From: Blastocystis sp. Blastoise
Taxonomy: Eukaryota > Protista > Bigyra: Opalinata
Reading direction: 5' to 3'
DNA length: 64,000 nt
Assembly: GCA_039096225.1 (NCBI GenBank)
Contig: JBBPEB010000009.1
Span: 434,001 to 498,000, forward strand
Part shown: positions 27-43,886 of the stretch, in pieces
Position numbering within the stretch: the first letter of the stretch is position 1
Layout: every line of letters begins with the position of its first letter
Position numbers and translations under genes: made by a program
The notes under the pieces: model-generated
Seen by the model: only the letters and a program-made list of their open reading frames with translations
What the model was told of the DNA's origin: nothing
Database searches by the model: none

Positions 27-639
27 TCATTACTATATATATGAGAATAGGCAAAAAAATTCCCATTGGTCAGTTTTTGGAAAATGCATTTGATTGGCTA
101 AGGTATACTATAGTTTGTCGCCGCAACTCCTCTAAACTTACGGGGAGTTAACTTTTGAGTGAAACACAGTTCAATAGGATATAACGTGTAGTTGTGCACC
201 GTATATTTGGTTAAGCGATATTGTTTATAATTAAAAAGATATTAATAAAAGAACAGAAAACATGATTTTTGAGTCGTTTTTGATTGGCTCTTTGGGATGA
301 CCCCGATAAAAATTGTTGACCAGACAATTGGAAAATAAACATGGGGTAAACTTGATTTTTTCTCAATCCCACAATATACGTTATCCGTGTTTATTCTTTA
401 TATTTATCTATTTTTTAATACTTTTTCATATTGAACACGTGAGGCCTTAACGGTCAAATTTAGATTGTCAATTTGACATGATATTCTGATTCAGGAGGTC
501 CAAAAACCTAGGTGTAGCGATTTTCAGCTCCTGAGGACGATTTTTGAGTGATCGATATTTTCTTCGATCTTCTTATAATCGACTAATATTACAGCATAGT
601 AATCAATAGGTCCTCAAACTACTATAGTAGCAACGTGAT

Positions 640-2110
640 CTTAAAATAATGAGTTTTAGTGTCACAATTTTGAAAAATGTGAATTAAGTGGTCTTAGAGT
701 GAGAGATTCAATATAATGACTTTTGTTTAGTAAACTAGAGATAATACTCTATTCTATGTTAAAAGGAGAGTCAAAATTATGAAGGTCAAAGTGTATGACC
801 AAATGACAAAATGTGTCTTAAAAAGTAAAATGGTTTCTATATGTGTTCAAAATGTTGAATCACGTCTATTCTTTGAATAAGAGCTTTAAATAAATAGTTT
901 AAGGCTGTCAAATTCAAAAGAATGTGTAAAACATAGTCTTAAACTATGAATAAAAAATTTAGAGATATTAATTAGTGTACAGCTGTAGTAGCTCTACAAC
1001 ATATCAAAAGTTCAAAGAAAATAATTTTTAGAGAGTGGATGTGTGAAGGGTTGTGACTATTATTTAAAATTTATTTTCACTTCAGTTTGTTTAAAATCGT
1101 GAATTTCGTGCACTGTAGAAAAATTGAGTCAAAAAAACAACTCTAAGGATCTTAAATTTAAATAAATGTAAAAATGAGTGACTTAGAGGACGAGATTCAA
1201 TATTTGAGTGGTTATTCATTAAACTAGAGTGTATGAGCTATATTATGTTAAAAGGAGGGACGAAAATATGTTGATCAAAGTGTATGACCAAATGGTAAAG
1301 TCTTCTTAAAAAGCCTAAAGTGTTGACTAATGTGCTTATAGAGTCATCTAAAGTCTACTATGTAAATATTAGCTTTTAAAAATATGTTTAAGCCTTTCAA
1401 TTAGTAAAAATATGTTCAAAGAGAGTCATAAAATGAGAGTTTTAAGAAACGAGATATTGTTCAGTATACACTAAGAGACACTCTACAACATATCAAAAAT
1501 ATAGCAAAAACTATTTTTAGAGACTGCATGTGTAAAGGGTTGTGAGAGTTATTGAAAAAATATTTTTACTTCAGTTTGTGCAAAATCGTGTTTTTGGAGC
1601 ACTGTAGAAAAATTAACTTTAAAAATCAACTCTAAGGGTCTTAATTTTTAAAAATGTGAAAATGATTGACTTAGAGGACGAGATTCAAAATTCCCCCTCA
1701 CTTTCATATAACTAGACCACACAGTCTATATTATGTCAAAAGAAGGGACGAAAATATTTTGATCAAAGTGTATGACCAAATGGTAAAGTGTCTTTAAAAG
1801 TGTTATGATGATGACAGTTGTGTTTACATGTCTGAATCAAGTTTATTCTTAAAATATTAGCTTTAAATAGCAAGTTAAAGGTTGTCAATTTGTCAAAATG
1901 TTTTAAAGACTATCTTAAACAAAGAGATTCAAGAAGTTGACTTTCATTTTATACATTATATGTCTATATAAACACTTTACTAAAAGAACTTTGGAAAATA
2001 TTGTGGATGAGTGTTTTGTCAAATGGTAAAGTTGTATCAAGAGTGAATTGTTTCCATTCCTTTTTGTTTAAATCAATGTTTTATGTCCACTCTATAAAAA
2101 CTATCTTTTA
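640..2110. repeat. Three diverged tandem ~489-bp units within Helitron A (mirror ~23975-25445)
   Basis: CAAAGTGTATGACCAAATG at 787, 1276 and 1764. CTCTACAACATAT at 992 and 1481. GAGATTCAA recurs with the same period. Confidence 0.85.
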
Positions 2111-2452
2111 ATACTGAGTTTAACGTTTTAAAGTCAACATGTGTGTTTGGTTTGCTTACTTTTGAGAGTTGAAAATCAGTTTAAATTGATAAATTATGTT
2201 ATAGACGTCTATATTAATTGATTCAAACAGTTTTGAGATGACTTAGTTGTTTGAGTTAAAATGGATTTGTTCTCATTGTGACTGTTGTTGAGAAGAGGAA
2301 GTCTAAAAAAACTATAAACAGTTAGATATATGTATATAATGTCAAAATTTAAAAGGTATAATCTAAAAGAGATAAAAATAAGTTTAAAAAAAAGAGAAAA
2401 TATATATATATATATAATATGTAAAAAATATTAAAGAAAAAGAAAAATAAGA

Positions 2453-2519
2453 CTTCATGTCAGGAATTGAACCTGAAAACAATCTATAATGATTGTTTCT
2501 CTCCTTCTAGAGCATAAAG
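2453..2519 (-). ncRNA. tRNA-like cloverleaf, type 1 (copy A)
   Basis: CTTTATG-[CTCT AGAAGG AGAG]-[AAACAATC ATTATA GATTGTTT]-[TCAGG TTCAATT CCTGA]-CATGAAG. Contains a B-box-like GGTTCAATTCC. Confidence 0.6.
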
Positions 2520-2538
2520 GGAGTTTATAAATAATAAT

Positions 2539-2544
<6 letters not shown>

Positions 2545-2598
<54 letters not shown>

Positions 2599-3146
2599 AG
2601 ATATATATATATATATATATAGATATATATATATATATAGATATATAATAAGGAGAAAGTAGGAAGTAGGAAGTAGGAAGGAAGAAGGAAGAAGGAAGAA
2701 GGAAGGATGAAGAAGTAAGAAGGAAGGATGAAGAAGAAGGAAGAAAGAAGGATGAGGAAGAAGGAAATAGGAAGAATCAAGGATGGGGAAGAAGAAAGAA
2801 GGAAGAAGGAAGGAGGAAGAAGAATGAAGAACCAAGGTGAAGAAGAAGGGAGAAGTAAGAAGTAAGTACGAAGAATGAAGGAAGAATGATGAAGAAGGAA
2901 GAAGGAGGAAGAAGTAAAGAATGAAAAGAAAGAAGGCAGAAAGAAGAAGGAAGAAGGAAGAAGGAAGAAGGAAGAAGAAGGAAGGAAGAAGAAGTAAGTA
3001 GGAAAGATGAGGAAGAAGGAAGAAGTAAGAAGGAAGAAGAACGAAGATAGAAAGAAGAAAAAAAAAAACTAAGAAGAATATTAAACCTATATACAATAAA
3101 TAAACATAATAAATAAATAAATAAATAAATAAATAATAAACAATAA

Positions 3147-3179
<33 letters not shown>

Positions 3180-3290
3180 ATTAATAAATAAATAAACATA
3201 TAAAAAAAAATGAATAAATAAATAATAAATAAATAAATAAATAATAAAAAAAATGTAAACAATAAATAATAAAAATAATAAATAAAATAT
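2545..3290. repeat. (TA)n, ~410-bp GAA/GGAA polypurine tract (2651-3068) and (TAAA)n; mirror 22790-23540
   Basis: Visible directly. It accounts for the spurious F/L/S-rich ORFs. Confidence 0.9.
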
Positions 3291-3299
3291 AAATATATA

Positions 3300-3712
3300 C
3301 CTTTAAAATAACCTTGAACGACAGATTAAAGAAGGAAAATATTTAGCAACGAAGACCACAACACATCCATTGAAGTTTCTTTCCTATAGAATAAAAATTA
3401 TTAATAATATATAGAATAAATTATATGTAAAGACTAAATAAATAATATTGATAATAAAAATAATAAATAATAAAAACGAATTAACAAAAAGAAAAACAGA
3501 TCTTAAGAAATAAATAATATATTTATATACCTGATCATAAATAAACCATTTTACACAGCCAAGACCACTTCAAGAACACTTCACCACTATAACGAAGACA
3601 AATACAAAACAATCCTATAGAAAATGAAATATTTTAAATAAATAAATATATACATACAAATATATATAAAAATAATAACTAAACAATATCAAATAAATAA
3701 ATAAAACATACT
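3300..3712 (-). pseudogene. Spliced cargo unit with interrupted frames (mirror 22372-22996 +)
   Basis: In copy B, GTAT donors at 22372, 22553 and 22783 and TATAG acceptors at 22468, 22699 and 22996. No continuous frame found. Confidence 0.45.
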
Positions 3713-3985
3713 CAGTCAATCAATATAATTAAATATTTAAAAAATGTAAAAAACTATGTTTTTTGGGTACCCTAAATGTTTTTAATAGAAAATGACCCAA
3801 TTATTACTTTTAGAAATAAATCAATAAAAACTCAAGGGTTTTTATGATTTCTATTAAGTTTTAAGAAGCATATTTTTTATAAAAGACCCTTTTCTTTAAA
3901 AGTAGAAATATAAACACAATTTTTATATTAAGAGAAAACACTTATTTTTTATAATTAAAATATTATCTAAGATGCCTCAGAAGGC

Positions 3986-5237
3986 ATGATGCTATCAAGA
4001 TCGAAGTGTCTTAATGGAAAAATATGCTTTTTTTTCAAAAACCTTCAGGTATATTGTATCTATTTTTTATTATTATTTGTATATAGGTTCTTTTACTCAA
4101 TAAAATCCAGTTGCGTATGTTCTTGGTCTTGGTGGTACTTGCTCTGATGGTCTTAAAGGTATATATTTTCCATTTCTTTTTTTTTTAAATTATTTATTAT
4201 ATTATTTTAGGTTCTTCTATGTTATTTGTATCATACGGAGGCTGTGGTGTTGCCTGTTATGCTAACTGTGAAGGTATGTTGTCAATGATTTGTTTTTATT
4301 TTTTTAATTTTATTTATTTATAGGTTCTTCTGTTGTTTTAAATGATGCTAATGGTTCTAATGATGTGATTGTAGGTTCTTCTTATTGTATTGAAGGTATG
4401 TTGCCAATCATTTAATTTATTTTTATATTTTATTATTATTTTATTATTATTTCTATATATATATATAGGTTCTTCAGTTGCTGTGCATGTTGACAGTGGT
4501 GTTGATGATAGATGTCTGTGTGGTGTTGAAGGTTCTTCTGATGCTTTCAATACTGCTGTTGATGTTGTTGGTGATCAGATAGACTGTTCCTATGGTATTA
4601 AAGGTATATATATATATTGTCATTCATTTATTATTATTTTTTTTTATTTATTATTTGTCTATTACTGTTTCTTTATAGGTTCTTTTATTGTTGTGTGTGT
4701 GGTTGCTGAAGGTGTTAATAATTAAGGTATGTCTATTTTTTTAATTTAATTTAGTTTATTTTTATTTATTATTTATATATAGGTCCTTCTATTCTGATCG
4801 AGTCTTCTATTATAGGTAATGAAAGGTATATACTTATTTCTTCCTTTCTTTTTTTTTTAATTTATTAATTATCTTATCATTATATATAGGTTCTTCAAGT
4901 CAGTTATGATATGATACTTATTTTTCTGTTCCTTCTTTAGAAGGTATATATATATTTTTATTGTTTATATATTTTTTATTATTTATTATATATAGGTGTC
5001 TTTTCTAATAGGGGATCTTATCACCCTAATGTTGGCTTTTATTTTAATAATAAAAATATATCTAAAGGTATATATATATATATATATATAACAAATATTT
5101 ATATTTCTTTTAATATATATATCTATATATTTTATCTATATAGTGATGGTGTAAATAGTTCTTTAATGCTGAAGGTATATATATATATATTTATCTTTTA
5201 TTTCTATAGGTTCTTCTAATTTGGTTGGCATACTTAA
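3986..5237 (+). pseudogene. Array of ~12 short exons (G|GTTCTT...AAG|GTAT) encoding GSS..EG/KG peptides, partly decayed
   Basis: Exons 4087-4158, 4211-4273, 4324-4395, 4469-4531, 4532-4603, 4679-4726, 4783-4825, 4890-4943, 4996-5067 and 5144-5174. Three exons contain in-frame stops and two have non-3n lengths. Confidence 0.6.
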
Positions 5238-5579
5238 CATATTATTTCATTTTTGTTTTGTTTTGTTTTGCTTTGTTTATTATTATTATTTTTTTTTTCA
5301 CAGATAATATCTTTCTATTATCTGCTTTCTTAGTATTATTTATTTATTTTTGTTTTGTTCGTTTTTTATAATTTTTATTGTGCTTACTATTAAGATAATT
5401 TTGAAATTAGTTAATGTTATTAGTATGTGGTCCTTAATATTGTTTTAATTTATAATAACATTCATTTATCACCTAATCTGATATAGACTAGCGATATAAT
5501 TACATCAATGATTGAGTTATTATTAAGTTTTGTATTCTCCACTTTCATTTATATATTTAATTATGTGTAAAATTGTAAG

Positions 5580-6780
5580 CAATAAGAAATGTGAAAAAAT
5601 AGGTTATTAAATTAAGAGATTTAAAATTATAGAAATTGTTTAATATAGAACAACATGTACTCTACAACATATTAAAAAATAAGAGAATTTCATTTTTGAC
5701 AAGTGAATTAACAATGCGTTTGAGTTGTTCAGAAATTTTAAAGAGTTAGTCTATTCTTTTAAAATTGTGTTTTTGTTATACTATGAAAATTTTGACTTTT
5801 AAAAACAAGTTTAAAGGGATTATTTTTTTAAAATGTAGAAATGAATTATCCAAAGGACGAGATTCAATATAAAACATTTTATTTATCAAACTATTATTTA
5901 TAGTCTGAATTATATTAAAAGGAGGGACAAAAATACTCTTGACAAAGTGTATGACCAAATGAAAAATGTTTATAAAGAGTGTCAAAATGGTAGTTAATGT
6001 ATTGGCAGAGTTATGTCGAGCATAGCGTTAAAATATAAGCTTTTTAAATTAACTATAAGTGTGTTAACTTTTCAAAATGTATAAAAAAGGGTCTTTAGGT
6101 CAGAGATTCAAGACATTCAACTATAAGTAATATATGACATAATGAGATCTATATTGTGTGAAAGTTATGTCTAAAACTATTTTGATACACTGGATATCAA
6201 AATGGTGAAGTCTCTTTACAAGCGATATTGCTGACACTTTTATGTATAGAAATGCTTTTTAGAGTGACATTATTAATATTAATTCTAAAATTATGTGTTT
6301 AAGTCGTTAAAGTGAAAATGAATGTTGACTTTGTTGTGTTAGATTCGTTTTAGTTTTATGAAATGGTTAAAGAAAGTGTAAACTACCTTATTATAATCTA
6401 TTTAAAATGATTTTACATAATAATGACTTTCAATACTTAACATTGTGACCCATTTCTAAATTTATTAGCTTTAGAAACTCCATAATAATTAAAGCAGTAA
6501 CTCAACTATTTATAAATACAAAATATATTTTTAAAATAATAAATAACAAATATAATGATTCAAAAACGATTTCTTATTTTTTTTAAGTATTATTTTTAGT
6601 GTTTCAGATACTATTCAAAAAATTCAATTTAATTCTTATATCAGGAATTGAACCTGATTATAATCAACAAATGATTATTACTCTCCATATAGAGTATAAG
6701 AAGTGTTAATAAAATAATATATATAATATATAATATATAATATATAATAAATAATAAGTAACATATTATAGATAATATTT
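5580..6780. repeat. Diverged internal duplicate of ~1400-2600 (offset ~4180)
   Basis: CTCTACAACATAT 1481/5660, CAAAGTGTATGACCAAATG 1764/5943, CAGGAATTGAACCTGA 2461/6642. Confidence 0.8.
6633..6702 (-). ncRNA. tRNA-like cloverleaf, type 2 (copy A)
   Basis: TTCTTATA-[CTCT ATATGG AGAG]-TA[ATAATC ATTTGTT GATTAT]AA-[TCAGG TTCAATT CCTGA]-TATAAGAA. Confidence 0.6.
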
Positions 6781-6863
6781 AATAAATAATATATATTATA
6801 TAATATATAGTAGATAATAAGGAAAGAAAGTGAATAAAAACAAAACACTTATTATTCATTGCA

Positions 6864-6900
6864 GCCGCGGTCCGGTGCCGTTAGGCCCCGGACCTGCGGC
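6864..6900 (+). terminator. Helitron 3' subterminal hairpin (rolling-circle termination signal), copy A
   Basis: GCCGC/GCGGC + GGTCCGG/CCGGACC + GCC/GGC with a GTTA loop, ending 6 nt before CTAG. Confidence 0.9.
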
Positions 6901-6910
6901 GTGACCCTAG

Positions 6911-9900: not shown

Positions 9901-12267
9901 ATTCATTTTCTACTTCTTCTATTATTTCATTCTCATTATTATTATTATTAGTTGAATTTGAAATATTTCTATTATTATTATTATTATTTTGACGATTTAA
10001 ATGTAATTCAGAATTACGTATAATATTAGAAGTAGATTCTAAACTCCATAATGGTAATCCATAAGGAAACATTAATGGATATATTAAAGGATCACAAAAA
10101 GGATTATTATAACTAAGATTTGTTATTTGTTGTTCTGATATATTTTCATTATTATTTTCATTTTCATTTTCAATTTCATTATTACTATTATTTCTTCTTC
10201 TTCTTCTTGGATAACATGAAAGATTAATATTTGGTAAACCTTCATCATTTTGTTTTGGTATAATCATAGCTATTTCATTTGTTGTAGTAGGAGCATTAAA
10301 TCTTCTTCTATCATCATAATTACTTATTTTAAATTGTAATTTTAAATTTACTTGTGAATAAGTAGTATTATTTATTCTTCTTGATTCTGTTACTTGTTCA
10401 TGTAATGTTTTAAAAGATTCATATATTTTATTATTATTTCTTATCATAGAATCAATACTTAATAATAAATCAGAAGATAATTCTGAAAACATACTATTTC
10501 CATTTCGAATATGAAGAGCTTCTTCTTCATCATAAATATATATTTGATTAAAAGAAGGAGGAGAATTATCAGAAGGATATAAATCACTCATAGAATGATA
10601 TACATTACCATGAACTCTATAAAAATATGGTCCTGGACCATTCATTCTTGTTACTACATTAGAACATGACATAGAAGCAAAAGCAAAAGCATTATTATAT
10701 CTTCTTATCTCATTTCTAAATAATTTATTATTTGGTGTTTGACTCTTTAATTGATTTAATAATTCATTTGGAAGATTTATAGGTGATTCTACTTTCACTT
10801 TCCCATTATTACAACACATTGTATAATTTGAATTTCTTGTAATGATATAATCATGATCTCCTTCATAGTATTCAAATTGTATTCTTGAATCATTAATTAA
10901 ATTAATGTATTTTTTATATGTAGAATTTTTTGTGATATAAAAGTTTGTTTTTTCTGCTTCAAAATGAAGAGCTTCACAATGAATACAAACGTGATTCATT
11001 TTACCTATATTATAATATTCATATTTATTATTTCCTTGAATATCTCTTTCATTCTCTTCTATTATTTGTTCTCCATTTCCTATACATAATATAATAATAG
11101 TTTTATTATCATAAAGAAAGAATTATAAAAATGATATAATATTAAGCATACTTAATTTAATACATGCTTCACAATTTTCAAATCTTATCACAATAGGAAT
11201 ATTGCTATTATTTTCTTCATTATTATTTTCATTTTGATTATCTATATCTATATCGTTATTATTTGTAGAGTTTATTGGTTCTATTTGCAAAATAGGATTA
11301 TTAGTAGTATTAGAAGGAATAATAGGTGTGAAATCACTATCTGTACTTGAATCATTATCTGAAGTAGAAGAATCAAAACTAATTCTTCTTCTATGATTAT
11401 TTATATTTGTTGATAATAAATTATTATTATTAGGATTTTGAATGGGAGATATTTGATAATAATTTAATATATCTAATATTGATGATCTTGGTAAAGGAGG
11501 AATAATAGAATGATTATTATTACTATTATGAGAAGAAGAAGAAGAATTAATAATTCTTGAATCAAGAGGAGATAATCTAGGAGGTGTTATAATGAGAGAA
11601 GTAGAAGGAGATACTATTTGATTATTTGTATTAGAATTTGGTGTATTATATATAGTTGGAGTATTAATATTATTGATCATATTATTATCTGAAAGTATAT
11701 CATTATTGTGTTGATTATGTAAAGGAGTTACAGGATTATTTAATATTATAGGTTGTGTATTATCATTTGTTTCATTATTTTCAAAAATAAAAGTAGAATT
11801 AAAACTATCATCAATTATTGATTGAGATATACTTTCATTATTATTATTTATTTCAGATTCTATAAAATTTGTTTCATTAATTAAAGTTTCAGATATATTT
11901 TCGTTATTTAAACTTGTATTATTATTAGAATCTGGCTCTATTAAATTGATTTCATTAATTAATGTTTCGATTGTGTTATTATTATATGAATTTGTATTAT
12001 TACTTTGAGTTGAAGTATTATCTGAAATAGGAGAAGAAGAAGAAGAAGATATAGTTGCTATATTGTTTAGTTGTATTGGGTGTTGTTCAGTTACTATTTC
12101 TTCATTATTTAAAGAATTATTTGTATTGAATAATGAATTGTCTTGATTAAAAGCATTTTGATTTTCGTTTAATATTTGGTCATTAATCCTTTTAGATTTG
12201 TGGGTATTCAAAAAATTCCCAAATATATCTCTTCTCTTAAGAGAATTAAATCGCTTTCTTTTGTTTC
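6911..12267 (-). CDS. Helitron Rep-helicase (HUH Y2 endonuclease + Pif1-family SF1B helicase), interrupted by copy A
   Basis: Rep motifs PDLFITMTCNPNWPEI, EYQKRGMPHAHIL and KYIFKYAFKGHD. Helicase motifs DGPGGTGKT, AWTGIAA, IIWDEAPM, LGGDFRQCLPV and LTENMRA. Zn-finger-like GKMNHVCIHC. Intron 11080-11151 joins the N/S-rich ORF 11152-12267 in frame. The ORF tail LGSRRRSGA* (6881-6910) is read from copy A's end. Confidence 0.95.
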
Positions 12268-12497: not shown

Positions 12498-12997
12498 TTA
12501 ATAATATTCAGGAGAAGAAACAGGATAAACAGGAGAAGTAGGAGGTGAAACCCTTTCATCATAATAAGGAGGACTTGAGAGATCCTCGTCACTTTCATTC
12601 TCCTGATTATTATTTAAAGTAACTATCAAGTCATAATAGAATTTAAATAATAAAAATATTTACCTTGATTTGTTGGACATGTTGAAAATCTGTTTTTATT
12701 TGCAAAAAGAGTTGTGTTGTCTTTAAATATAAATTTATTTGTTATTTCTGAGTCTGTAGTTCCTATATATATTTTAGGTTGTTTTCACATCAAAACATAC
12801 CTTCACAATTAATAGTAAACAGATTACTATTAAAAAATATTTTTTCAAGGGTGTTTTTGTAGTTATTATTATCTAAAGACGAAACAATAAAAATATTTTT
12901 ATTATTTTATTAGACAATAATATACCTTTGTCTCCCTTGTTGTTAAGACAAAAGCAAGATGTATGAAACTCAAAAGTATTTTCAACTCTTTTACAAT
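12498..12997 (-). CDS. Small spliced Helitron cargo gene of unknown function (5' exon not identified)
   Basis: Phase-1 exons 12926-12997, 12801-12872, 12664-12762 and 12498-12622 splice to an open frame ending ...DEDLSSPPYYDERVSPPTSPVYPVSSPEYY*. Confidence 0.65.
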
Positions 12998-13452
12998 CTA
13001 TATATATGATAATATATTTTGTAAGTTAATGAAAATATTTTCGAGATCAAACATATCAAAAACAAAAGTGTGTAACATTAATTTGCCATAACAAATAAGT
13101 TACAACACAGAACCAAAACAAACACATCAAAAAATATAAAACAGCAATATGATATTTGATATCTTCTATTCAAATTAATTAATATATTAAATACTATTTA
13201 AGTTTATAAACTTTAAACTATATAAAGAGACATCATGAACTTTAATAAAGCAGAGTCGGGCATTTTATATAGGTTAAACTTAAATAATAAATAATTTAAA
13301 TTAATTAAAATAAAAGAATAACAAAAATAATAAAAGCTGTTAAATATTTAATGATATAAGAAATAAAAATAGAAAAAGAAGAAAAATTAAAAAGTTAAAA
13401 AAAAAATATAAACTAATATAAAAAAGAATAAACAACAAAGCAACAAACAAAA

Positions 13453-14155
13453 CTAAAAACAAAAAACAATAAAGAAAGATTTACTTTTTATATTTATATT
13501 AAAAAGGCCAGATACACTACTTGTTTTGCTTTTTTTTGGCTTTACTCCATTATTATTTAAATCTAAAAAAATAATATATATAGTTATAATATAAAATACC
13601 TTTCAATTTAATTTCATTATTATGTTTTTTAGAGCCACTCTTTGAGAGAGTGCGGCGATTTTCTATAAATATAAATATAAATATAAATATAAATATATAC
13701 TCTTCATTAGGGAATGTTTTGATCGTTTGCATTCAGCTATATATATAGTATAGTATATATATATATATTAGTATATAATATATATGCATATACCATTATT
13801 TGAAGTATGATTCAATTCATTATCTATATATATAGTGTTGATATATAATGTTATATATATATACCTTCGGTCAATGGTTTTGATCCTGAATCTATATATA
13901 TATTATAATATGATATAACATAATATAATATTATATATACATTGAATCAATGGTTTTAATCCTGAATCTATATATATAATAAGTATAATATAATATAATA
14001 TAATATAATATAATATATACCTTGAGTCAACGACTTTGATCCTGAATCTATATATATAATATAATGTAATATAATACATATATATAATATTATATATATA
14101 TATACCTTGAGTCAATAGCTTTGATCGTGAATCTATATATATAATAAGTATAATA

Positions 14156-14211
<56 letters not shown>

Positions 14212-14377
14212 GAGTCAATAGTTTTGATCGTGAATCTATATTTATAATAAGTATAATATTATATTATATATATATATATACCTTGAGTCAATAGTTTTGA
14301 TCCTGAATCTATATATATAATAAGTATAATATAATATAATCTAATATATACCTTGAATCGACGGTTTTAATCTTGAA

Positions 14378-14412
<35 letters not shown>

Positions 14413-14621
14413 ACCTTCACTCGATTGTTTTAATCCTGAATCTAGATATATAATATAATATAATATAATATAATATTATATATATATACCTTGAGTCAAT
14501 AGCTTTGATCCTGAATCTATATATATAATATAATATAATATAATATAATATAATATTATATATATATATACCTTGAGTCAATAGCTTTGATCGTGAATCT
14601 ATATATATAATAAGTATAATA

Positions 14622-14669
<48 letters not shown>

Positions 14670-14762
14670 GAGTCAATAGCTTTGATCCTGAATCTATATA
14701 TATAATAAGTATAATATAATATAATCTAATATATACCTTGAATCGACGGTTTTAATCTTGAA

Positions 14763-14799
<37 letters not shown>

Positions 14800-15008
14800 A
14801 CCTTCACTCGATTGTTTTAATCCTGAATCTAGATATATAATATAATATAATATAATATAATATTATATATATATACCTTGAGTCAATAGCTTTGATCCTG
14901 AATCTATATATATAATATAATATAATATAATATAATATAATATTATATATATATATATATTGTGTCAATATCTTTTATTGTGAATATATATATATAATAA
15001 ATATAATA

Positions 15009-15040
<32 letters not shown>

Positions 15041-15097
15041 CCTTGAGTCAATAGTTTTGATCCTGAATCTATATATATAATATAATATAATATAATA

Positions 15098-15135
<38 letters not shown>

Positions 15136-15191
15136 GAGTCAATAGTTTTGATCCTGAATCTATATATATAATATAATATAATATAATATAA

Positions 15192-15228
<37 letters not shown>

Positions 15229-15369
15229 GAGTCAATAGTTTTGATCTTGAATCTATATATATATATATATATAATATAATAGATTATAATAGAATATAAT
15301 AGATTATAATAGAATATAATATAATATTATATATATATATACCTTGAGTCAATAGCTTTGATCGTGAAT

Positions 15370-15415
<46 letters not shown>

Positions 15416-15844
15416 ATAATAGAATATAATAGAATATAATAGAATATAATAGAATATAGCATATATATACCTTGAGTTAATAGCTTTGATCCTGAATCTA
15501 TATATATATATATATATAATAGAATAGAATATAATAGAATATAATAGAATATAATAGAATATAGCATATAAATACCTTGAGTCAATAGCTTTGATCCTGA
15601 ATCTATATATATATATATATATATATAATATAGTATAATAGTTTAAATGATTGTATACTTAATAATAATTAATAATATATATATACATACTTTTCGTATT
15701 TATTTTTAGTGGATTTATAAATACGCATAAAAATATTTTATAAGACAAAAATGAAAAGCTAAATAAATATATACCATTATTATTTGAAGATTCAGCATCC
15801 TCATATTGTGATAATAACGATAAGACTGGACAATCAGATTCCAT
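13453..15844 (-). CDS. Micro-exon repeat gene, ~280 aa: MESDCPVL...(DSGSKLLTQ-like)x20...basic tail
   Basis: Exon 15775-15844, then twenty 27-nt exons between 13865 and 15602, then 30-, 36- and 63-nt exons and a terminal exon 13453-13562. All introns are GT-AG phase 1 and the frame is open throughout. Confidence 0.65.
13860..15610. repeat. Tandem array of 21 conserved 27-bp units separated by microsatellite introns
   Basis: TACCTTGAGTCAATAGCTTTGATCCTGAATCTATA recurs every ~63-130 bp. Confidence 0.95.
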
Positions 15845-15979
15845 AGTACTTAAACAATACTGAAAGATTTAGCAAAAAGCACCTTCTATATATATAAAAG
15901 GTATATTAAAACAAATGGTTTAATAAATCAAAAAGATATACATAATAAAAGAAATAATATATTATAATATAAATATATA

Positions 15980-16300
15980 CATGACATCAAAGATATTTTG
16001 TGGTGAATTTACATATCAAAAAATGAATGGTGAACTTTTAAAAACGGAATCTTCATATCATTTTTTTCATAATAACCAACCATTTATTTATAACTTCCAG
16101 CTACATTTCTTTTCTTTCTTTTCTTTCTTTGGATAGCATAGTTGTAACAGTCAATTCTTAAGATGAGTAATAGCATACCTAATAAAAAAGTTATACATTA
16201 TCCCCTGTATCATTAGTTTACCCATTTACATTGTATCATTACCAAATATAATTTATTATATTTATCATCTACTCTCTATACATATATAAATTAATTAATA
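15980..16300 (-). pseudogene. Decayed exons upstream of the micro-exon gene
   Basis: Splice signals are present but the frames examined contain multiple stops. Confidence 0.35.
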
Positions 16301-19134
16301 AAAACACGATAAAGACAAAAATGAAAATAAACTTACAGAAGGAATTATTAAAATAAAGAATGATTTGGTTGTTACCAATATATTAATATGTTGAACGTAG
16401 AAATAGCATAGTAGTTTTAAGTAACCCTTTCTTATATCACTCTAAAATCAGCTAAAGTTTCTTTGTTCACAATTAGGCAATCATTCTTTCAATCAGTTAA
16501 AAATTCATTAATTAGACATTCTACCATTGGCGCTTTTAATTCTGTTCATGAAATGACTTGCTAAATGTATTTAAATCTATTTCTAAATACAGTACAATAA
16601 AAAAAAGAAAAGAAAAGAAAAATACTGAAAGTTTTAAAATATTCTTTTTCATTTTTATTGTTAGCTCATCTTCTTATGTGTTTCAAACAGAGATTAATAA
16701 GATTATTGATCACTATAAAAAAATTTGAACCTTTTTAATTAAGATTGTAAAACAATTACATCTATATCAGTTTGCAAAAAGTATTATTTTATAAAAATTA
16801 GCATAATAATAAAACATTTATAATATTATTATGTAGAAATATAATATTAATTATGAATTAAGTCCATAATCTTCATGTGTTTGACTTAAAAAATAATGTA
16901 GATAATTCTGTCAAGACCTCTTTTTTTTTATCTTATTTTAACTTTTAATATAATATAATATTATAAAGTTTTCATATATTTTATAAGATAGACACATATA
17001 GTATTAAATATGACAAAAATAAATAATAAAAACATAATAATAATGGTCGAAATTGACCTTAGTTGAAACATCAAAAATAAAATTTTTGAGAAAACGCAAA
17101 ATTTCTTTTTCATTTTTGACACCGAGACCCAACGATATTTTATATTTTGACTTTATATATTTATGTAATAGTATAATAACTATTAATATGACTTTTAAAA
17201 AGTGTGTTAGAACGACTTTTTTTGGTACAAAGTCGCAATTAACTTTTTTTGACCTTTTTTAAAAAGCCTTTAAAGACATAAAATATCATAATGTATCCTA
17301 TGGGGCATCCTTACACCAAATATAAAGTCATAAGTCGAAATTAATGGGGTCGAAATCTGCCGATACACCAACTTTGTTGTCATAAACATGCAATAATGAT
17401 ATATTTGTGTATGGTAGAGGTCACTGTATTCATATATAAAATCAGAATTTGATTTTATGAGGGTCAACCAAACAGATATCCACTCATTCTTGTCTTAAAA
17501 GAAACCTGATGGGTTCAATGAGTGGCGAATTTTATCTAAACTACAAATATTAAGTCCAAATTTCTTTATTAAGAGTAAAATGATTTCGATATCTCTTCGA
17601 CCTTTTTATTTTAAAAATGTGTTCAAATAATTTATGAATATAAACTCATAAGATAAATCCTGTAACGTTTAAAAATTAATAAAATAAAAAATGTTGACAG
17701 AACGCGCGATTGAAGTTTTTTGTCAATTTTTCAACATGTCAAAAACAGGTTTTAATGACTTTTAGGATGGTTTCATGAGTTATCATGATGATCCAGATAG
17801 TTTTCATTAAAATTCAAAGGAGTCAAAAGAGAATGTGTCCGATATCTCAATACTTTGTGGATCAATTTTTTTAAAAGCTTTATATATTATCATTACTCAG
17901 GTTATTTTATGTATATAAGTTAATTTCAATCAATTAAAGTCTCTTAAAAAAAGGATTCTTGTCTAATTGTCTTTTTAAAGTTTAAAAATCGTTTATACAT
18001 GTGGCGAGAAATGTTATGCATTTAAAATAAATTATATTAATATTTAATGACAAATATTAAGTACATCATAAAGAAAAATATAACTTAAAAATGAAATTTA
18101 TAAAAAATAAATTTTACAAAATATAAAAAGAAATTTTTAAGTAGAAAAATGTAAAAAATGAAAAAATTTCTGAGAAAATGAAAAATAAATAGGAATTTTA
18201 TGTACGAAATATGTTTATTGGATAAAAACTCAAATTTTGAATTTTAGCCAATTATTTGGGGCATTTCCGTTAAATTTTTTTTTGTCTTACCGTTTTAGGC
18301 CCTTAGACGTGGAATTTTTGAAAATTTTAAAAGCGCGTCATAATACGTTTTTCATGTAGTATCTTACTCTGTTATCAGTGTAACATAGATATGTAACACA
18401 AAAAAGTAATCGGTCCATTTATATCAGTACAATTTTGTGCTTACTTATCCCTTTTATATATAAGATACATATGAATATAAAACAAACTGCGTCATAATAA
18501 ACGATCTGACGAGTTGCTATGACAGAGTTAAACACAATATGTGTCAATAGGATTCCCAATTTCTATTTGATAATTTCTAGCCACAAAAAATAAATCTTTT
18601 TATTATTAAAGTTGCTTTGTGTTTATTATTTATTGTTTTGTTTTCATATTTTATTTTAGTAAATGCTATATTATCAAACAAAGCTGTATATTCTTAATAA
18701 CTAAGTTTATTAAATCATATTATAGTTATTATTGCTAGAAAAAAATGAATTGAGTTTCCAGTAATCTATTATTCTTTTAAATTAATAGCATACATTGTAT
18801 AGGATTTCTGATAACTATTAGAATTGTTAACAGTAGAAGCAAAACTAATGTTAATCGGGTATATATATATATATATATATATATATTCTTTTAATTTCTA
18901 ATTATTACTATAATCTATTTTATTTCTTATATAGGCAAGACCACTTTAACTGGAAGAAGGTTCAAATCGATATATATTTTTTCGTTGTTAGTATATAAAT
19001 ATTTCATTACAATTTATTATTAATTATATTTTATAGTATTCAGTTGGTATAATTTTATTCAATCAAAAGAAAAAGGTAAAATATATATTATCTTTATTGT
19101 TAATTTATTTATATATAGTAATTACTAGGGTCAC

Positions 19135-19171
19135 GCCGCAGGTCCGGGGCCTAACGGCACCGGACCGCGGC
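19135..19171 (-). terminator. Helitron 3' subterminal hairpin, copy B
   Basis: Exact reverse complement of 6864-6900. Confidence 0.9.
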
Positions 19172-19332
19172 TGCAATGAATAATAAGTGTTTTGTTTTTA
19201 TTCACTTTCTTTCCTTATTATCTACTATATATTATATAATATATATTATTTATTAAATATTATCTATAATATGTTACTTATTATTTATTATATATTATAT
19301 ATTATATATTATATATATTATTTTATTAACAC

Positions 19333-19402
19333 TTCTTATACTCTATATGGAGAGTAATAATCATTTGTTGATTATAATCAGGTTCAATTCCTGATATAAG
19401 AA
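19333..19402 (+). ncRNA. tRNA-like cloverleaf, type 2 (copy B)
   Basis: Identical to 6633-6702. Confidence 0.6.
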
Positions 19403-20799
19403 TTAAATTGAATTTTTTGAATAGTATCTGAAACACTAAAAATAATACTTAAAAAAAATAAGAAATCGTTTTTGAATCATTATATTTGTTATTTATTATT
19501 TTAAAAATATATTTTGTATTTATAAATAGTTGAGTTACTGCTTTAATTATTATGGAGTTTCTAAAGCTAATAAATTTAGAAATGGGTCACAATGTTAAGT
19601 ATTGAAAGTCATTATTATGTAAAATCATTTTAAATAGATTATAATAAGGTAGTTTACACTTTCTTTAACCATTTCATAAAACTAAAACGAATCTAACACA
19701 ACAAAGTCAACATTCATTTTCACTTTAACGACTTAAACACATAATTTTAGAATTAATATTAATAATGTCACTCTAAAAAGCATTTCTATACATAAAAGTG
19801 TCAGCAATATCGCTTGTAAAGAGACTTCACCATTTTGATATCCAGTGTATCAAAATAGTTTTAGACATAACTTTCACACAATATAGATCTCATTATGTCA
19901 TATATTACTTATAGTTGAATGTCTTGAATCTCTGACCTAAAGACCCTTTTTTATACATTTTGAAAAGTTAACACACTTATAGTTAATTTAAAAAGCTTAT
20001 ATTTTAACGCTATGCTCGACATAACTCTGCCAATACATTAACTACCATTTTGACACTCTTTATAAACATTTTTCATTTGGTCATACACTTTGTCAAGAGT
20101 ATTTTTGTCCCTCCTTTTAATATAATTCAGACTATAAATAATAGTTTGATAAATAAAATGTTTTATATTGAATCTCGTCCTTTGGATAATTCATTTCTAC
20201 ATTTTAAAAAAATAATCCCTTTAAACTTGTTTTTAAAAGTCAAAATTTTCATAGTATAACAAAAACACAATTTTAAAAGAATAGACTAACTCTTTAAAAT
20301 TTCTGAACAACTCAAACGCATTGTTAATTCACTTGTCAAAAATGAAATTCTCTTATTTTTTAATATGTTGTAGAGTACATGTTGTTCTATATTAAACAAT
20401 TTCTATAATTTTAAATCTCTTAATTTAATAACCTATTTTTTCACATTTCTTATTGCTTACAATTTTACACATAATTAAATATATAAATGAAAGTGGAGAA
20501 TACAAAACTTAATAATAACTCAATCATTGATGTAATTATATCGCTAGTCTATATCAGATTAGGTGATAAATGAATGTTATTATAAATTAAAACAATATTA
20601 AGGACCACATACTAATAACATTAACTAATTTCAAAATTATCTTAATAGTAAGCACAATAAAAATTATAAAAAACGAACAAAACAAAAATAAATAAATAAT
20701 ACTAAGAAAGCAGATAATAGAAAGATATTATCTGTGAAAAAAAAAAATAATAATAATAAACAAAGCAAAACAAAACAAAACAAAAATGAAATAATATGT

Positions 20800-22098
20800 T
20801 AAGTATGCCAACCAAATTAGAAGAACCTATAGAAATAAAAGATAAATATATATATATATACCTTCAGCATTAAAGAACTATTTACACCATCACTATATAG
20901 ATAAAATATATAGATATATATATTAAAAGAAATATAAATATTTGTTATATATATATATATATATATACCTTTAGATATATTTTTATTATTAAAATAAAAG
21001 CCAACATTAGGGTGATAAGATCCCCTATTAGAAAAGACACCTATATATAATAAATAATAAAAAATATATAAACAATAAAAATATATATACCTTCTAAAGA
21101 AGGAACAGAAAAATAAGTATCATATCATAACTGACTTGAAGAACCTATATATAATGATAAGATAATTAATAAATTAAAAAAAAAAGAAAGGAAGAAATAA
21201 GTATATACCTTTCATTACCTATAATAGAAGACTCGATCAGAATAGAAGGACCTATATATAAATAATAAATAAAAATAAACTAAATTAAATTAAAAAAATA
21301 GACATACCTTAATTATTAACACCTTCAGCAACCACACACACAACAATAAAAGAACCTATAAAGAAACAGTAATAGACAAATAATAAATAAAAAAAAATAA
21401 TAATAAATGAATGACAATATATATATATACCTTTAATACCATAGGAACAGTCTATCTGATCACCAACAACATCAACAGCAGTATTGAAAGCATCAGAAGA
21501 ACCTAAATATATATAAAAGTAAAAAAAGAAAAATAAATGAATGACAACATACCTTCAACACCACACAGACATCTATCATCAACACCACTGTCAACATGCA
21601 CAGCAACTGAAGAACCTATATATATATATAGAAATAATAATAAAATAATAATAAAATATAAAAATAAATTAAATGATTGGCAACATACCTTCAATACAAT
21701 AAGAAGAACCTACAATCACATCATTAGAACCATTAGCATCATTTAAAACAACAGAAGAACCTATAAATAAATAAAATTAAAAAAATAAAAACAAATCATT
21801 GACAACATACCTTCACAGTTAGCATAACAGGCAACACCACAGCCTCCGTATGATACAAATAACATAGAAGAACCTAAAATAATATAATAAATAATTTAAA
21901 AAAAAAAGAAATGGAAAATATATACCTTTAAGACCATCAGAGCAAGTACCACCAAGACCAAGAACATACGCAACTGGATTTTATTGAGTAAAAGAACCTA
22001 TATACAAATAATAATAAAAAATAGATACAATATACCTGAAGGTTTTTGAAAAAAAGCATATTTTTCCATTAAGACACTTCGATCTTGATAGCATCATG
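20800..22098 (-). pseudogene. Same exon array in copy B, retaining intron 21503-21552
   Basis: Reverse complement of 3986-5237 plus a 50-nt GT-AG intron. Confidence 0.6.
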
Positions 22099-22903
22099 CC
22101 TTCTGAGGCATCTTAGATAATATTTTAATTATAAAAAATAAGTGTTTTCTCTTAATATAAAAATTGTGTTTATATTTCTACTTTTAAAGAAAAGGGTCTT
22201 TTATAAAAAATATGCTTCTTAAAACTTAATAGAAATCATAAAAACCCTTGAGTTTTTATTGATTTATTTCTAAAAGTAATAATTGGGTCATTTTCTATTA
22301 AAAACATTTAGGGTACCCAAAAAACATAGTTTTTTACATTTTTTAAATATTTAATTATATTGATTGACTGAGTATGTTTTATTTATTTATTTGATATTGT
22401 TTAGTTATTATTTTTATATATATTTGTATGTATATATTTATTTATTTAAAATATTTCATTTTCTATAGGATTGTTTTGTATTTGTCTTCGTTATAGTGGT
22501 GAAGTGTTCTTGAAGTGGTCTTGGCTGTGTAAAATGGTTTATTTATGATCAGGTATATAAATATATTATTTATTTCTTAAGATCTGTTTTTCTTTTTGTT
22601 AATTCGTTTTTATTATTTATTATTTTTATTATCAATATTATTTATTTAGTCTTTACATATAATTTATTCTATATATTATTAATAATTTTTATTCTATAGG
22701 AAAGAAACTTCAATGGATGTGTTGTGGTCTTCGTTGCTAAATATTTTCCTTCTTTAATCTGTCGTTCAAGGTTATTTTAAAGGTATATATTTATATTTTA
22801 TTTATTATTTTTATTATTTATTGTTTACATTTTTTTTATTATTTATTTATTTATTTATTATTTATTTATTCATTTTTTTTTATATGTTTATTTATTTATT
22901 AAT

Positions 22904-22936
<33 letters not shown>

Positions 22937-23495
22937 TTATTGTTTATTATTTATTTATTTATTTATTTATTTATTATGTTTATTTATTGTATATAGGTTT
23001 AATATTCTTCTTAGTTTTTTTTTCTTCTTTCTATCTTCGTTCTTCTTCCTTCTTACTTCTTCCTTCTTCCTCATCTTTCCTACTTACTTCTTCTTCCTTC
23101 CTTCTTCTTCCTTCTTCCTTCTTCCTTCTTCCTTCTTCTTTCTGCCTTCTTTCTTTTCATTCTTTACTTCTTCCTCCTTCTTCCTTCTTCATCATTCTTC
23201 CTTCATTCTTCGTACTTACTTCTTACTTCTCCCTTCTTCTTCACCTTGGTTCTTCATTCTTCTTCCTCCTTCCTTCTTCCTTCTTTCTTCTTCCCCATCC
23301 TTGATTCTTCCTATTTCCTTCTTCCTCATCCTTCTTTCTTCCTTCTTCTTCATCCTTCCTTCTTACTTCTTCATCCTTCCTTCTTCCTTCTTCCTTCTTC
23401 CTTCCTACTTCCTACTTCCTACTTCCTCCTTATTATATATCTATATATATATCTATATCTATATATATATATATATATATCTATATCTATATCTA

Positions 23496-23540
<45 letters not shown>

Positions 23541-23562
23541 ATTATTATTATTTATAAACTCC

Positions 23563-23629
23563 CTTTATGCTCTAGAAGGAGAGAAACAATCATTATAGAT
23601 TGTTTTCAGGTTCAATTCCTGACATGAAG
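23563..23629 (+). ncRNA. tRNA-like cloverleaf, type 1 (copy B)
   Basis: Identical to 2453-2519. Confidence 0.6.
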
Positions 23630-26329
23630 TCTTATTTTTCTTTTTCTTTAATATTTTTTACATATTATATATATATATATATTTTCTCTTTTTTTAAACT
23701 TATTTTTATCTCTTTTAGATTATACCTTTTAAATTTTGACATTATATACATATATCTAACTGTTTATAGTTTTTTTAGACTTCCTCTTCTCAACAACAGT
23801 CACAATGAGAACAAATCCATTTTAACTCAAACAACTAAGTCATCTCAAAACTGTTTGAATCAATTAATATAGACGTCTATAACATAATTTATCAATTTAA
23901 ACTGATTTTCAACTCTCAAAAGTAAGCAAACCAAACACACATGTTGACTTTAAAACGTTAAACTCAGTATTAAAAGATAGTTTTTATAGAGTGGACATAA
24001 AACATTGATTTAAACAAAAAGGAATGGAAACAATTCACTCTTGATACAACTTTACCATTTGACAAAACACTCATCCACAATATTTTCCAAAGTTCTTTTA
24101 GTAAAGTGTTTATATAGACATATAATATATAAAATGAAAGTCAACTTCTTGAATCTCTTTGTTTAAGATAGTCTTTAAAACATTTTGACAAATTGACAAC
24201 CTTTAACTTGCTATTTAAAGCTAATATTTTAAGAATAAACTTGATTCAGACATGTAAACACAACTGTCATCATCATAACACTTTTAAAGACACTTTACCA
24301 TTTGGTCATACACTTTGATCAAAATATTTTCGTCCCTTCTTTTGACATAATATAGACTGTGTGGTCTAGTTATATGAAAGTGAGGGGGAATTTTGAATCT
24401 CGTCCTCTAAGTCAATCATTTTCACATTTTTAAAAATTAAGACCCTTAGAGTTGATTTTTTAAGTTAATTTTTCTACAGTGCTCCAAAAACACGATTTTG
24501 CACAAACTGAAGTAAAAATATTTTTTCAATAACTCTCACAACCCTTTACACATGCAGTCTCTAAAAATAGTTTTTGCTATATTTTTGATATGTTGTAGAG
24601 TGTCTCTTAGTGTATACTGAACAATATCTCGTTTCTTAAAACTCTCATTTTATGACTCTCTTTGAACATATTTTTACTAATTGAAAGGCTTAAACATATT
24701 TTTAAAAGCTAATATTTACATAGTAGACTTTAGATGACTCTATAAGCACATTAGTCAACACTTTAGGCTTTTTAAGAAGACTTTACCATTTGGTCATACA
24801 CTTTGATCAACATATTTTCGTCCCTCCTTTTAACATAATATAGCTCATACACTCTAGTTTAATGAATAACCACTCAAATATTGAATCTCGTCCTCTAAGT
24901 CACTCATTTTTACATTTATTTAAATTTAAGATCCTTAGAGTTGTTTTTTTGACTCAATTTTTCTACAGTGCACGAAATTCACGATTTTAAACAAACTGAA
25001 GTGAAAATAAATTTTAAATAATAGTCACAACCCTTCACACATCCACTCTCTAAAAATTATTTTCTTTGAACTTTTGATATGTTGTAGAGCTACTACAGCT
25101 GTACACTAATTAATATCTCTAAATTTTTTATTCATAGTTTAAGACTATGTTTTACACATTCTTTTGAATTTGACAGCCTTAAACTATTTATTTAAAGCTC
25201 TTATTCAAAGAATAGACGTGATTCAACATTTTGAACACATATAGAAACCATTTTACTTTTTAAGACACATTTTGTCATTTGGTCATACACTTTGACCTTC
25301 ATAATTTTGACTCTCCTTTTAACATAGAATAGAGTATTATCTCTAGTTTACTAAACAAAAGTCATTATATTGAATCTCTCACTCTAAGACCACTTAATTC
25401 ACATTTTTTCAAAATTGTGACACTAAAACTCATTATTTTAAGATCACGTTGCTACTATAGTAGTTTGAGGACCTATTGATTACTATGCTGTAATATTAGT
25501 CGATTATAAGAAGATCGAAGAAAATATCGATCACTCAAAAATCGTCCTCAGGAGCTGAAAATCGCTACACCTAGGTTTTTGGACCTCCTGAATCAGAATA
25601 TCATGTCAAATTGACAATCTAAATTTGACCGTTAAGGCCTCACGTGTTCAATATGAAAAAGTATTAAAAAATAGATAAATATAAAGAATAAACACGGATA
25701 ACGTATATTGTGGGATTGAGAAAAAATCAAGTTTACCCCATGTTTATTTTCCAATTGTCTGGTCAACAATTTTTATCGGGGTCATCCCAAAGAGCCAATC
25801 AAAAACGACTCAAAAATCATGTTTTCTGTTCTTTTATTAATATCTTTTTAATTATAAACAATATCGCTTAACCAAATATACGGTGCACAACTACACGTTA
25901 TATCCTATTGAACTGTGTTTCACTCAAAAGTTAACTCCCCGTAAGTTTAGAGGAGTTGCGGCGACAAACTATAGTATACCTTAGCCAATCAAATGCATTT
26001 TCCAAAAACTGACCAATGGGAATTTTTTTGCCTATTCTCATATATATAGTAATGATTTCAAATAGAGTTTGCCATTAAATAAAAAAGGAAAATCTTATGA
26101 TAATTCATTTTATTATAGGTGTTTTATTATTATTTTATAAATTGTTTTTGTTAATTATTTTATTATATTGCTTTGTGATGTTTTTTTGTTATTAATTGCT
26201 TCATACATATAATACAAAATTTAAAAAAAACTAAAACTTCTAGGATATGATAATATATCTATTAGAATAAAAACTTTTTTAGATGATTATTTGTTAAAAA
26301 CTGAAAATGTTATTGTTTCCATTTTGTAG

Positions 26330-43746: not shown

Positions 43747-43886
43747 TTTCAATAGCTAATGCAATATATCGCATTAAAAATTTCAAAAAATTTCCCTTTG
43801 AAAACTTTGTTTTGAGAGTTGTAGTTTTTTACAAAAGATTTAGATTTTCACTTAATAACCTACATTTTCACATTATTATATAACCT

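What the first reader, a model, noticed from the sequence alone, without database searches (positions are those of the whole stretch)
13865..15602. Gene built from 20 tandem 27-nt micro-exons with microsatellite introns
Seen: a CRISPR-looking array in which the conserved unit is, on the minus strand, tatatag|ATTCAGGATCAAAGCTATTGACTCAAG|gtatat, a 9-codon exon with both splice sites. The spacers are (TA)n/(TATAT)n introns. Only phase 1 is open in all units (DSGSKLLTQ, DSRLKPSIQ, DSGLKQSSE, DSGSKPLTE), and two variants are synonymous in it (AAG/AAA, TTG/TTA). Flanking 30-, 36- and 63-nt exons continue the frame. A ~385-bp higher-order block is duplicated (~14282-14600 vs ~14667-14985). Inference: an exon+intron minisatellite whose product length is tunable by exon skipping or unequal crossover, carried as Helitron cargo.
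Basis: partly seen in the sequence, partly recalled or inferred. Interest (0 to 1): 0.75.

Follow-up and report, generated by a model that had tools for sequence, protein, structure and literature searches.

The report
Micro-exon array inside a Helitron gene
A rolling-circle transposon in the gut protist Blastocystis holds 20 tandem copies of a 27-base unit flanked by splice signals, likely micro-exons of the transposon's own gene that multiplied neutrally and would lengthen a floppy protein segment, but no RNA was available to show that they are spliced.

Summary
The spacers look like ordinary introns of this organism (Blastocystis, by protein hits). The units sit in a 29-exon, all-phase-1 model (394 aa, no stop) between a likely Helitron 5' end (19124) and RepHel (11079-6911). 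Three annotated sister loci join the same units in the same frame (5, 6 and 6 units). A diverged, array-free subfamily keeps the downstream exons under protein-level constraint and is modelled as spliced into RepHel. So this is more likely the element's own fast-evolving 5' gene than captured cargo. Splicing is not shown: no usable RNA was found, and the sister models may be ab initio. RepHel in this copy is split by a 6.9-kb non-autonomous Helitron. Closest analogue: Schistosoma SmPoMuc (27-bp exon, up to 20 exon+intron repeats), but here there is no signal peptide and the host is a transposon. New variant of a known kind; interest 0.5.

The parts
13865..15602 (-). Array of 20 intact 27-nt phase-1 units with GT..AG microsatellite spacers (predicted micro-exons and introns)
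14959..14985 (-). Degraded 21st unit: both splice dinucleotides lost, in-frame TAA; 7 changes from its twin (14598-14572), all to A or T; possibly a consensus artefact
14282..15041 (-). Higher-order duplication of about 385 nt (15041-14667 and 14666-14282), breakpoints in (TA)n
15775..15844 (-). Predicted first coding exon: ATG at 15844, 70 nt, ends in phase 1 at GTATAT; not present in any annotated sister model
   Evidence: sequence
13794..13823 (-). 30-nt phase-1 exon, present in P0122, P0123, P0124
13701..13736 (-). 36-nt phase-1 exon, present in P0122, P0123, P0124; its KRSKH core recurs in P0125/P0126
13600..13662 (-). 63-nt phase-1 exon, basic; absent from the sister models P0122-P0124
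13485..13562 (-). 78-nt phase-1 exon; read-through of its donor would stop after ten more codons; absent from P0122-P0124
12926..12997 (-). 72-nt phase-1 exon, present in P0122/P0123
12801..12872 (-). 72-nt phase-1 exon, conserved in P0122/P0123 and in the array-free subfamily
12664..12762 (-). 99-nt phase-1 exon, conserved in both subfamilies
12498..12622 (-). Terminal exon with TAA (short form, 394 aa predicted)
11152..12267 (-). N/S/T-rich exon, phase-1 acceptor at 12267, first Met only at codon 196 and not shared with P0126; joins RepHel through a 72-nt intron in model P0126
6911..11079 (-). RepHel coding exon (Helitron_like_N, PIF1), interrupted in the helicase at 6911; the frame resumes at 26 and leaves the window
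19111..19124 (-). Likely 5' end of the RepHel-bearing Helitron: 13 of 14 nt identical to the 5' end of the non-autonomous element, TA instead of TC
27..6910 (+). Non-autonomous Helitron copy (5' TC, 3' hairpin + CTAG, A|T site, no duplication) inserted antisense into RepHel
19125..26055 (-). Second copy of the non-autonomous Helitron, 99% identical, head-to-tail at the 5' end of the host element

Best explanation
The array is a tandem run of 20 splice-site-flanked 27-nt units lying inside a Helitron, and it is likely a set of true micro-exons of the element's own intron-rich 5' gene, expanded without selection on the peptide. Steps: (1) shown: each unit has AG and GT borders, is a multiple of three and is open in phase 1, as are all flanking exons. 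(2) Inferred: mispairing between the (TA)n tracts of neighbouring introns (slippage or unequal exchange) copies or deletes a whole exon+intron block, once a block of five units; since every exon is phase 1-1, each event keeps the frame and is tolerated. (3) Inferred: the transcript starts near 15.9-16.3 kb and is spliced either to the terminal exon (394 aa, basic, Ser/Thr-rich, predicted disordered and intracellular) or onward to the acceptor at 12267, which gives the N-rich exon its missing start and puts the repeats at the N-terminus of RepHel. (4) Shown for this copy: RepHel is split by an inserted non-autonomous Helitron, so any long form is broken here. The repeat would be a length-variable disordered spacer, a passenger rather than an adaptation.
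For: 28 of 28 model introns are GT..AG, 27 of 27 internal exons are multiples of three, and the 394-codon model has no stop; GC is 0.31 in exons and 0.105 in introns. 4 of 4 host introns recovered elsewhere in the window are 42-54 nt, AT-rich, GTA..TAG. The 3' exons were picked from sequence signals before the annotated models were seen; P0122/P0123 then showed the same exons in the same frame. Sister models hold 5, 6 and 6 units in differing order, 16 of 17 identical to a window unit. Against P0125, three downstream exons align 48 of 84, ungapped across the 38-nt intron, with replacements more conservative than neutral drift (mean BLOSUM +0.28 against -0.67 +/- 0.29; 2 of 3000 simulations). 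The N-rich exon is 305 of 368 identical to P0126 yet has no early or shared Met and no usable local ATG. A long form spliced from the 99-nt exon runs 2114 codons without a stop. Unit variation is neutral. Precedent for a multi-exon RepHel with a disordered N-terminal stretch: wheat FENG8 (PMC13286980, passages).
Against: No transcript evidence was obtained. The sister models may be ab initio: P0126 begins with a DDE_3-like fragment below Pfam's cut-off and P0124 begins in the antisense end of an inserted element. All informative relatives carry one organism label, so they are not independent genomes. An open frame in all units has probability 0.30 under neutrality, and only 12 of 27 unit sites vary, so invariant splice sites need no selection. 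No annotated model with this locus's own terminal exon was returned, and the first exon has no detectable match in P0125 (2517 of 5000 shuffles). The sister models lack the 63- and 78-nt exons. Only 2 of 19 array introns keep the frame if retained, so full-length product needs many correct splices. P(no stop) in the 3' exon test was 0.055, and that alignment was itself optimised on BLOSUM62.
Confidence: 0.55

Rival explanations
1. The array is a young non-coding minisatellite born from one exon+intron; it keeps splice sites only because it is recent, and it has disabled or is ignored by the gene it sits in.
For: No selection signal within units; 15 distinct derived alleles at 12 sites only; this copy's RepHel is broken; sister arrays appear interrupted by insertions; minisatellites inside Helitrons are well known (PMC12001565 and PMC4683698, passages).
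Against: No frame-breaking unit among the 20 intact ones or the 17 in sister models; units match the host intron style, so a transcript crossing them would likely be spliced; the flanking exons are open and, downstream, constrained.
Confidence: 0.25
2. A captured host gene (Helitron cargo) whose repeat number is tuned by exon skipping and selected for, like a variable surface mucin.
For: Architecture matches SmPoMuc closely; P0122 and P0123 differ by one internal unit, which skipping could explain; the 5' region diverges faster than RepHel (52 of 120, 305 of 368, 869 of 891 identical to P0126).
Against: No signal peptide or membrane segment (highest 19-residue hydropathy 0.15); no parent gene or family found; homologous exons are tied to RepHel in a diverged subfamily; unit changes are neutral.
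Confidence: 0.1
3. The many introns act as a brake on the transposase: most transcripts retain an intron or stop at the terminal exon, so little RepHel is made, and longer arrays are favoured because they spare the host.
For: 17 of 19 array introns break the frame or hold a stop if retained; a terminal exon competes with the acceptor at 12267. Otherwise inference.
Against: An array-free subfamily exists and has spread; no expression data.
Confidence: 0.05
4. Unit count and the higher-order block are partly assembly artefacts of a shorter array.
For: The degraded unit has 7 changes in 30 nt, all to A/T, near the border of the duplicated block, against 2 substitutions in the other ~345 nt, as a blend of reads with different array lengths would give.
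Against: 11 distinct unit sequences and distinct spacers; sister loci also hold arrays. At most the count changes, not the feature.
Confidence: 0.05

Closest known systems
Schistosoma mansoni SmPoMuc polymorphic mucins (PMC2576457; passages read)
   Same: A 27-bp exon coding 9 residues, repeated with its introns in tandem near the 5' end of the gene, up to about 20 times, with microsatellites in the repeat and copy number differing between genes.
   Different: SmPoMuc repeats are about 1 kb, in host genes with sequenced transcripts and a host-interaction role; here the block is 63-128 nt, lies inside a transposon, has no signal peptide and no transcript evidence. No sequence relationship was found.
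Schistosome micro-exon genes, MEG (PMC4350168; passages)
   Same: Most of the coding region is made of very small symmetrical exons.
   Different: MEG products all have signal peptides and vary by alternative splicing; here no signal peptide, short introns, near-identical exons.
Canonical Helitrons: Helraiser (PDB 7LCC) and wheat Feng8 (PMC13286980; passages)
   Same: RepHel with HUH/Y2 and PIF1 domains; Feng8 has a seven-exon coding sequence and a 264-residue disordered N-terminal region.
   Different: No tandem micro-exon array is described in the passages seen; here up to 29 exons would precede the Rep domain.
Helitron-internal minisatellites (Heli2Xen, DINE/HINE, Mothra; PMC12001565 and PMC4683698, passages)
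   Same: Tandem arrays that grow and shrink inside Helitrons.
   Different: Those are described as plain repeats; this unit is an exon with its intron.

Membership tests
Canonical Helitron (host element) | RepHel with Rep (HUH/Y2) and PIF1 helicase | tested here: met
   PF14214 E 6.8e-58, PF05970 E 3.3e-61; Helraiser 7LCC E 2e-206
Canonical Helitron (host element) | 5' TC terminus | tested here: inconclusive
   19124 reads TA but matches the non-autonomous 5' end 13 of 14; one other 1-mismatch site exists at 51323
Canonical Helitron (host element) | 3' hairpin and CTRR | not testable with these tools
   The 3' end lies beyond the left edge of the window; no genome is held
Canonical Helitron (6.9-kb non-autonomous copies) | 5' TC, 3' hairpin + CTAG, A|T target without duplication | tested here: met
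   2 of 2 copies; hairpin -19.0 kcal/mol; RepHel frame is continuous across the empty site
Helitron cargo (captured host gene) | A parent gene outside the element | tested here: inconclusive
   Searches returned only same-label models and two repeat look-alikes; the genomic context of the hits could not be read
SmPoMuc/MEG-type genes | Short symmetrical exons repeated with their introns | tested here: met
SmPoMuc/MEG-type genes | Signal peptide, secreted or surface product | tested here: not met
   No hydrophobic stretch by hydropathy windows in the 394-aa model; no dedicated predictor was run
SmPoMuc/MEG-type genes | Transcripts varying in exon number | not testable with these tools
   No usable RNA run
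CRISPR array | Unique spacers of regular length, known repeat family, cas genes | tested here: not met
   Spacers are 36-101 nt microsatellites, some duplicated; 0 Rfam matches in 12300-19200; no Cas family among 9 long ORFs scanned; eukaryotic genome

The most novel reading that the evidence does not exclude
A Helitron transposase gene whose first 29 exons are all phase 1 and include a run of about 20 nine-codon micro-exons: one spliced mRNA gives a RepHel of well over 2,100 residues with a repeat tail whose length changes between copies as microsatellite introns recombine, while an alternative last exon gives a short nuclear accessory protein.
Probability: 0.3. Interest if true: 0.7.

Novelty: new variant of a known kind. 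Interest (0 to 1): 0.5.

Why it matters
If spliced, it is a compact natural example of how repeat proteins can be born: microsatellite introns duplicate a symmetrical micro-exon with no selection on the peptide, and the array-free subfamily in the same organism gives the likely 'before' state. It would put the SmPoMuc architecture, known from a host-interaction gene, inside a transposon gene, and show a protist spliceosome resolving twenty 27-nt exons between 36-101-nt introns. The element family itself looks like a recent, strain-limited Helitron burst in Blastocystis.

Tried and rejected
RNA: no RNA holder listed. Of 3 runs laid on 6913-13440, one (X1, type only guessed) gave short, mostly depth-2 pieces on RepHel and the N-rich exon and low-complexity noise, no GT-AG joint and no cover at 12581-13016; two gave nothing. 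This says nothing for or against expression, and the array itself was never covered by reads. No whole genome held. Unit motif in metagenome contigs: 0. Rfam 0. Pfam on P0122: only a chance hit, E 0.2; none on P0124, P0125. AlphaFold2 on P0123 without alignment: pLDDT 35.7, uninformative, not fold-searched. ESM Atlas: no usable hit. Of 6 hits, two (P0127 abalone, P0128) were dropped as repeat-composition look-alikes. Origin of the unit from the 36-nt exon: 11-nt match, but 230 of 1000 shuffles reach the score; rejected. First exon homologous to the P0125 N-terminus: not significant. The degraded unit as proof of selection: rejected, its changes are clustered and artefact-like. Synonymous excess: none in any of 6 frames tested by count, and none against simulation in phase 1. 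Earlier scan notes: nothing. One search used wrong coordinates and was redone.

Full report
Observation. On the minus strand, 21 unit-like 27-mers lie at 15602..13865; 20 of 21 are bordered by AG and GT, with spacers of 36-101 nt made of (TA)n and (ATTAT)n. There are 11 distinct sequences among the 20. A degenerate pattern built from the array finds 20 places in the window, all here, and none in 100 shuffles. Phase 1 is the only minus-strand phase open in all 20 (stops: 0, 20 and 2 of 20). A block of five units is duplicated with a period of about 385-387 nt. The degraded unit (14985-14959) differs from its twin at 7 places in 30 nt, all to A or T, while the other ~345 nt differ by 2 substitutions and (TA)n length; I treat it as a possible consensus artefact and not as evidence.

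Organism and intron style. A TLDc gene of the window hits only proteins labelled Blastocystis sp. Blastoise among the 120 of 138 hits listed. Mapping three such proteins to the window recovered 4 introns of 42-54 nt, all AT-rich, GTA..TAG. The array spacers are of that type. A genome paper on the genus reports 21-23% GC, longer and variable introns and abundant low-complexity DNA in tortoise-derived strains (PMC10690189; abstract, sections 7, 8, 18, passages and two supplement rows seen). CRISPR is excluded: microsatellite spacers, no Rfam match, no Cas family in the 9 long ORFs scanned.

Gene model. A scan for AG|exon|GT segments open in phase 1, completed, gives an ATG exon (15844-15775), 20 units, exons of 30, 36, 63, 78, 72, 72 and 99 nt and a terminal exon (12622-12498): 29 exons, 394 codons, no internal stop. 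All 28 introns are GT..AG; GC is 0.31 in exons and 0.105 in introns; the product has 68 Ser, 31 Thr, 55 Lys+Arg and no hydrophobic stretch.

Context. RepHel (PF14214, PF05970; Helraiser E 2e-206) lies downstream on the same strand. The apparent 6.9-kb inverted repeat around the locus (99% identical) is two copies of one non-autonomous Helitron, 27-6910 (+) and 26055-19125 (-), each TC...hairpin-CTAG at an A|T site. The left copy splits the helicase; the frame is continuous across the empty site. The right copy abuts a sequence 13 of 14 identical to its own 5' end at 19124, likely the start of the host element (one other 1-mismatch site, at 51323). The array gene therefore lies between the element's likely 5' end and RepHel. 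The 3' end is outside the window.

Relatives. A search with the terminal exon found P0122 (1 of 6 candidates); its cluster holds P0123; a search of cluster representatives added P0124, P0125, P0126 and two look-alikes that I dropped. P0122, P0123 and P0124 join 5, 6 and 6 units in the predicted frame, then the 30- and 36-nt exons; 16 of 17 of their units equal a window unit; order and number differ internally, while the last unit is the same in all. They lack the window's first, 63- and 78-nt exons. The start of P0124 is reproduced 26 of 26 by assuming the non-autonomous element inserted antisense at an A|T site 5 nt before a unit, and by no other of 31 offsets; so that array is interrupted and its unit count is a lower bound. 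P0122/P0123 may start likewise (6 of 11 match to the same element end; weak). P0125 and P0126 have no array, share the downstream exons, and run on into the N-rich exon; P0126 continues into RepHel. Identity to P0126 rises from 52 of 120 (flanking exons) to 305 of 368 (N-rich exon) to 869 of 891 (RepHel).

Selection. Downstream exons against P0125: 48 of 84 identical, ungapped across a 38-nt intron, replacements conservative (mean BLOSUM +0.28; neutral -0.67 +/- 0.29; 2 of 3000), P(no stop) 0.055. They behave as coding. The units do not: 7.5 synonymous and 16.5 non-synonymous changes on a spanning tree, against 7.9 +/- 2.2 synonymous expected; P(no stop) 0.30. The N-rich exon has its first Met at codon 196, P0126 at 146, and the one ATG upstream meets a stop after 8 codons, so it likely needs upstream exons; splicing the 99-nt exon to 12267 gives 2114 open codons. 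That junction is my inference: P0125/P0126 use a different donor, inside the terminal exon.

Limits. Splicing is not shown. No RNA holder was listed and the runs laid were uninformative; the array was not covered by reads. The paper's pipeline favours RNA-supported introns but merges Braker3 predictions; I did not verify that the NCBI models came from that pipeline, and P0126 (DDE_3-like start, below cut-off) and P0124 look like ab initio or chimeric models. All informative relatives share one organism label. AlphaFold2, Pfam and the ESM Atlas gave nothing on the product. Supplement tables on repeat classes were not found by my terms and may bear on Helitron content.

Mechanism. Most likely, mispairing between (TA)n tracts of adjacent introns duplicates exon+intron blocks; phase symmetry makes this frame-safe; the peptide drifts; the product is a disordered spacer on a short accessory protein or on the RepHel N-terminus (0.55). 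Rivals: non-coding minisatellite (0.25), selected variable cargo (0.10), brake on transposase (0.05), count artefact (0.05). Copy-number change in DNA is favoured over skipping because intron retention is held to prevail outside animals (PMC6142364; search listing only).

Comparison. It works like SmPoMuc exon 2 (27 bp, up to 20 genomic repeats; PMC2576457, passages) and MEG genes (PMC4350168, passages) but is not a member: no signal peptide, no homology. Multi-exon RepHel genes with disordered N-termini (PMC13286980, passages) and Helitron minisatellites (PMC12001565, PMC4683698, passages) are known. I saw no report of an exon+intron micro-array inside a Helitron gene, or of Blastocystis Helitrons, in the listings of 8 searches; the library lacks most subscription papers.

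Verdict. Real feature, new variant of a known kind, interest 0.5; 0.7 if the spliced RepHel fusion is confirmed.

Noticed in passing
window 27-6910 (+) and 26055-19125 (-): Two 99%-identical copies of a 6.9-kb non-autonomous Helitron, both inserted into or against one RepHel-bearing element, mimic a giant inverted repeat; each holds an internal ~489-nt repeat and long (AT)n/(AAGAAGG)n tracts.
   Followed up: partly
PMC10690189 supplement file 7: Helitron helicase-like domain (IPR025476) is counted 49 times in one tortoise-strain column and 0 in the seven other Blastocystis columns and both outgroups; Pif1-like 52 against 1-4. Suggests a recent strain-limited burst, perhaps after horizontal transfer. 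I did not check which label that column corresponds to.
   Followed up: no
P0124 (and possibly P0122, P0123): Annotated models start in the antisense 5' end of the non-autonomous Helitron inserted in an array intron; the array has 296 AT steps per kb against 160 in the rest of the element, so it may be a landing pad for such insertions.
   Followed up: partly
window 14959-14985: Degraded unit with 7 clustered changes to A/T near the border of the duplicated block; may mark array-length polymorphism blended in the consensus.
   Followed up: partly
window 15775-15790 and 13794-13805 (-): The first exon and the 30-nt exon end in the same 11 nt (34 of 2000 shuffles), a hint that they arose by an older duplication on either side of the array.
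   Followed up: partly
window 27220-29503 (+), 30099-31691 (-), 42173-43755 (-): Three members of a very large TLDc-domain gene family (138 hits, the 120 listed all with one organism label); the first appears to carry a stop near 28380 that its close relatives lack.
   Followed up: no
window 54348-57035 (-) and 56734-58213: Kinesin motor gene with (LQSP)n tandem repeats in its N-terminal part, in a genus reported to have lost many motor genes.
   Followed up: no
window 16400-19124: 2.7 kb between the likely 5' end and the array gene with no long ORF and no match elsewhere in the window; not analysed.
   Followed up: no
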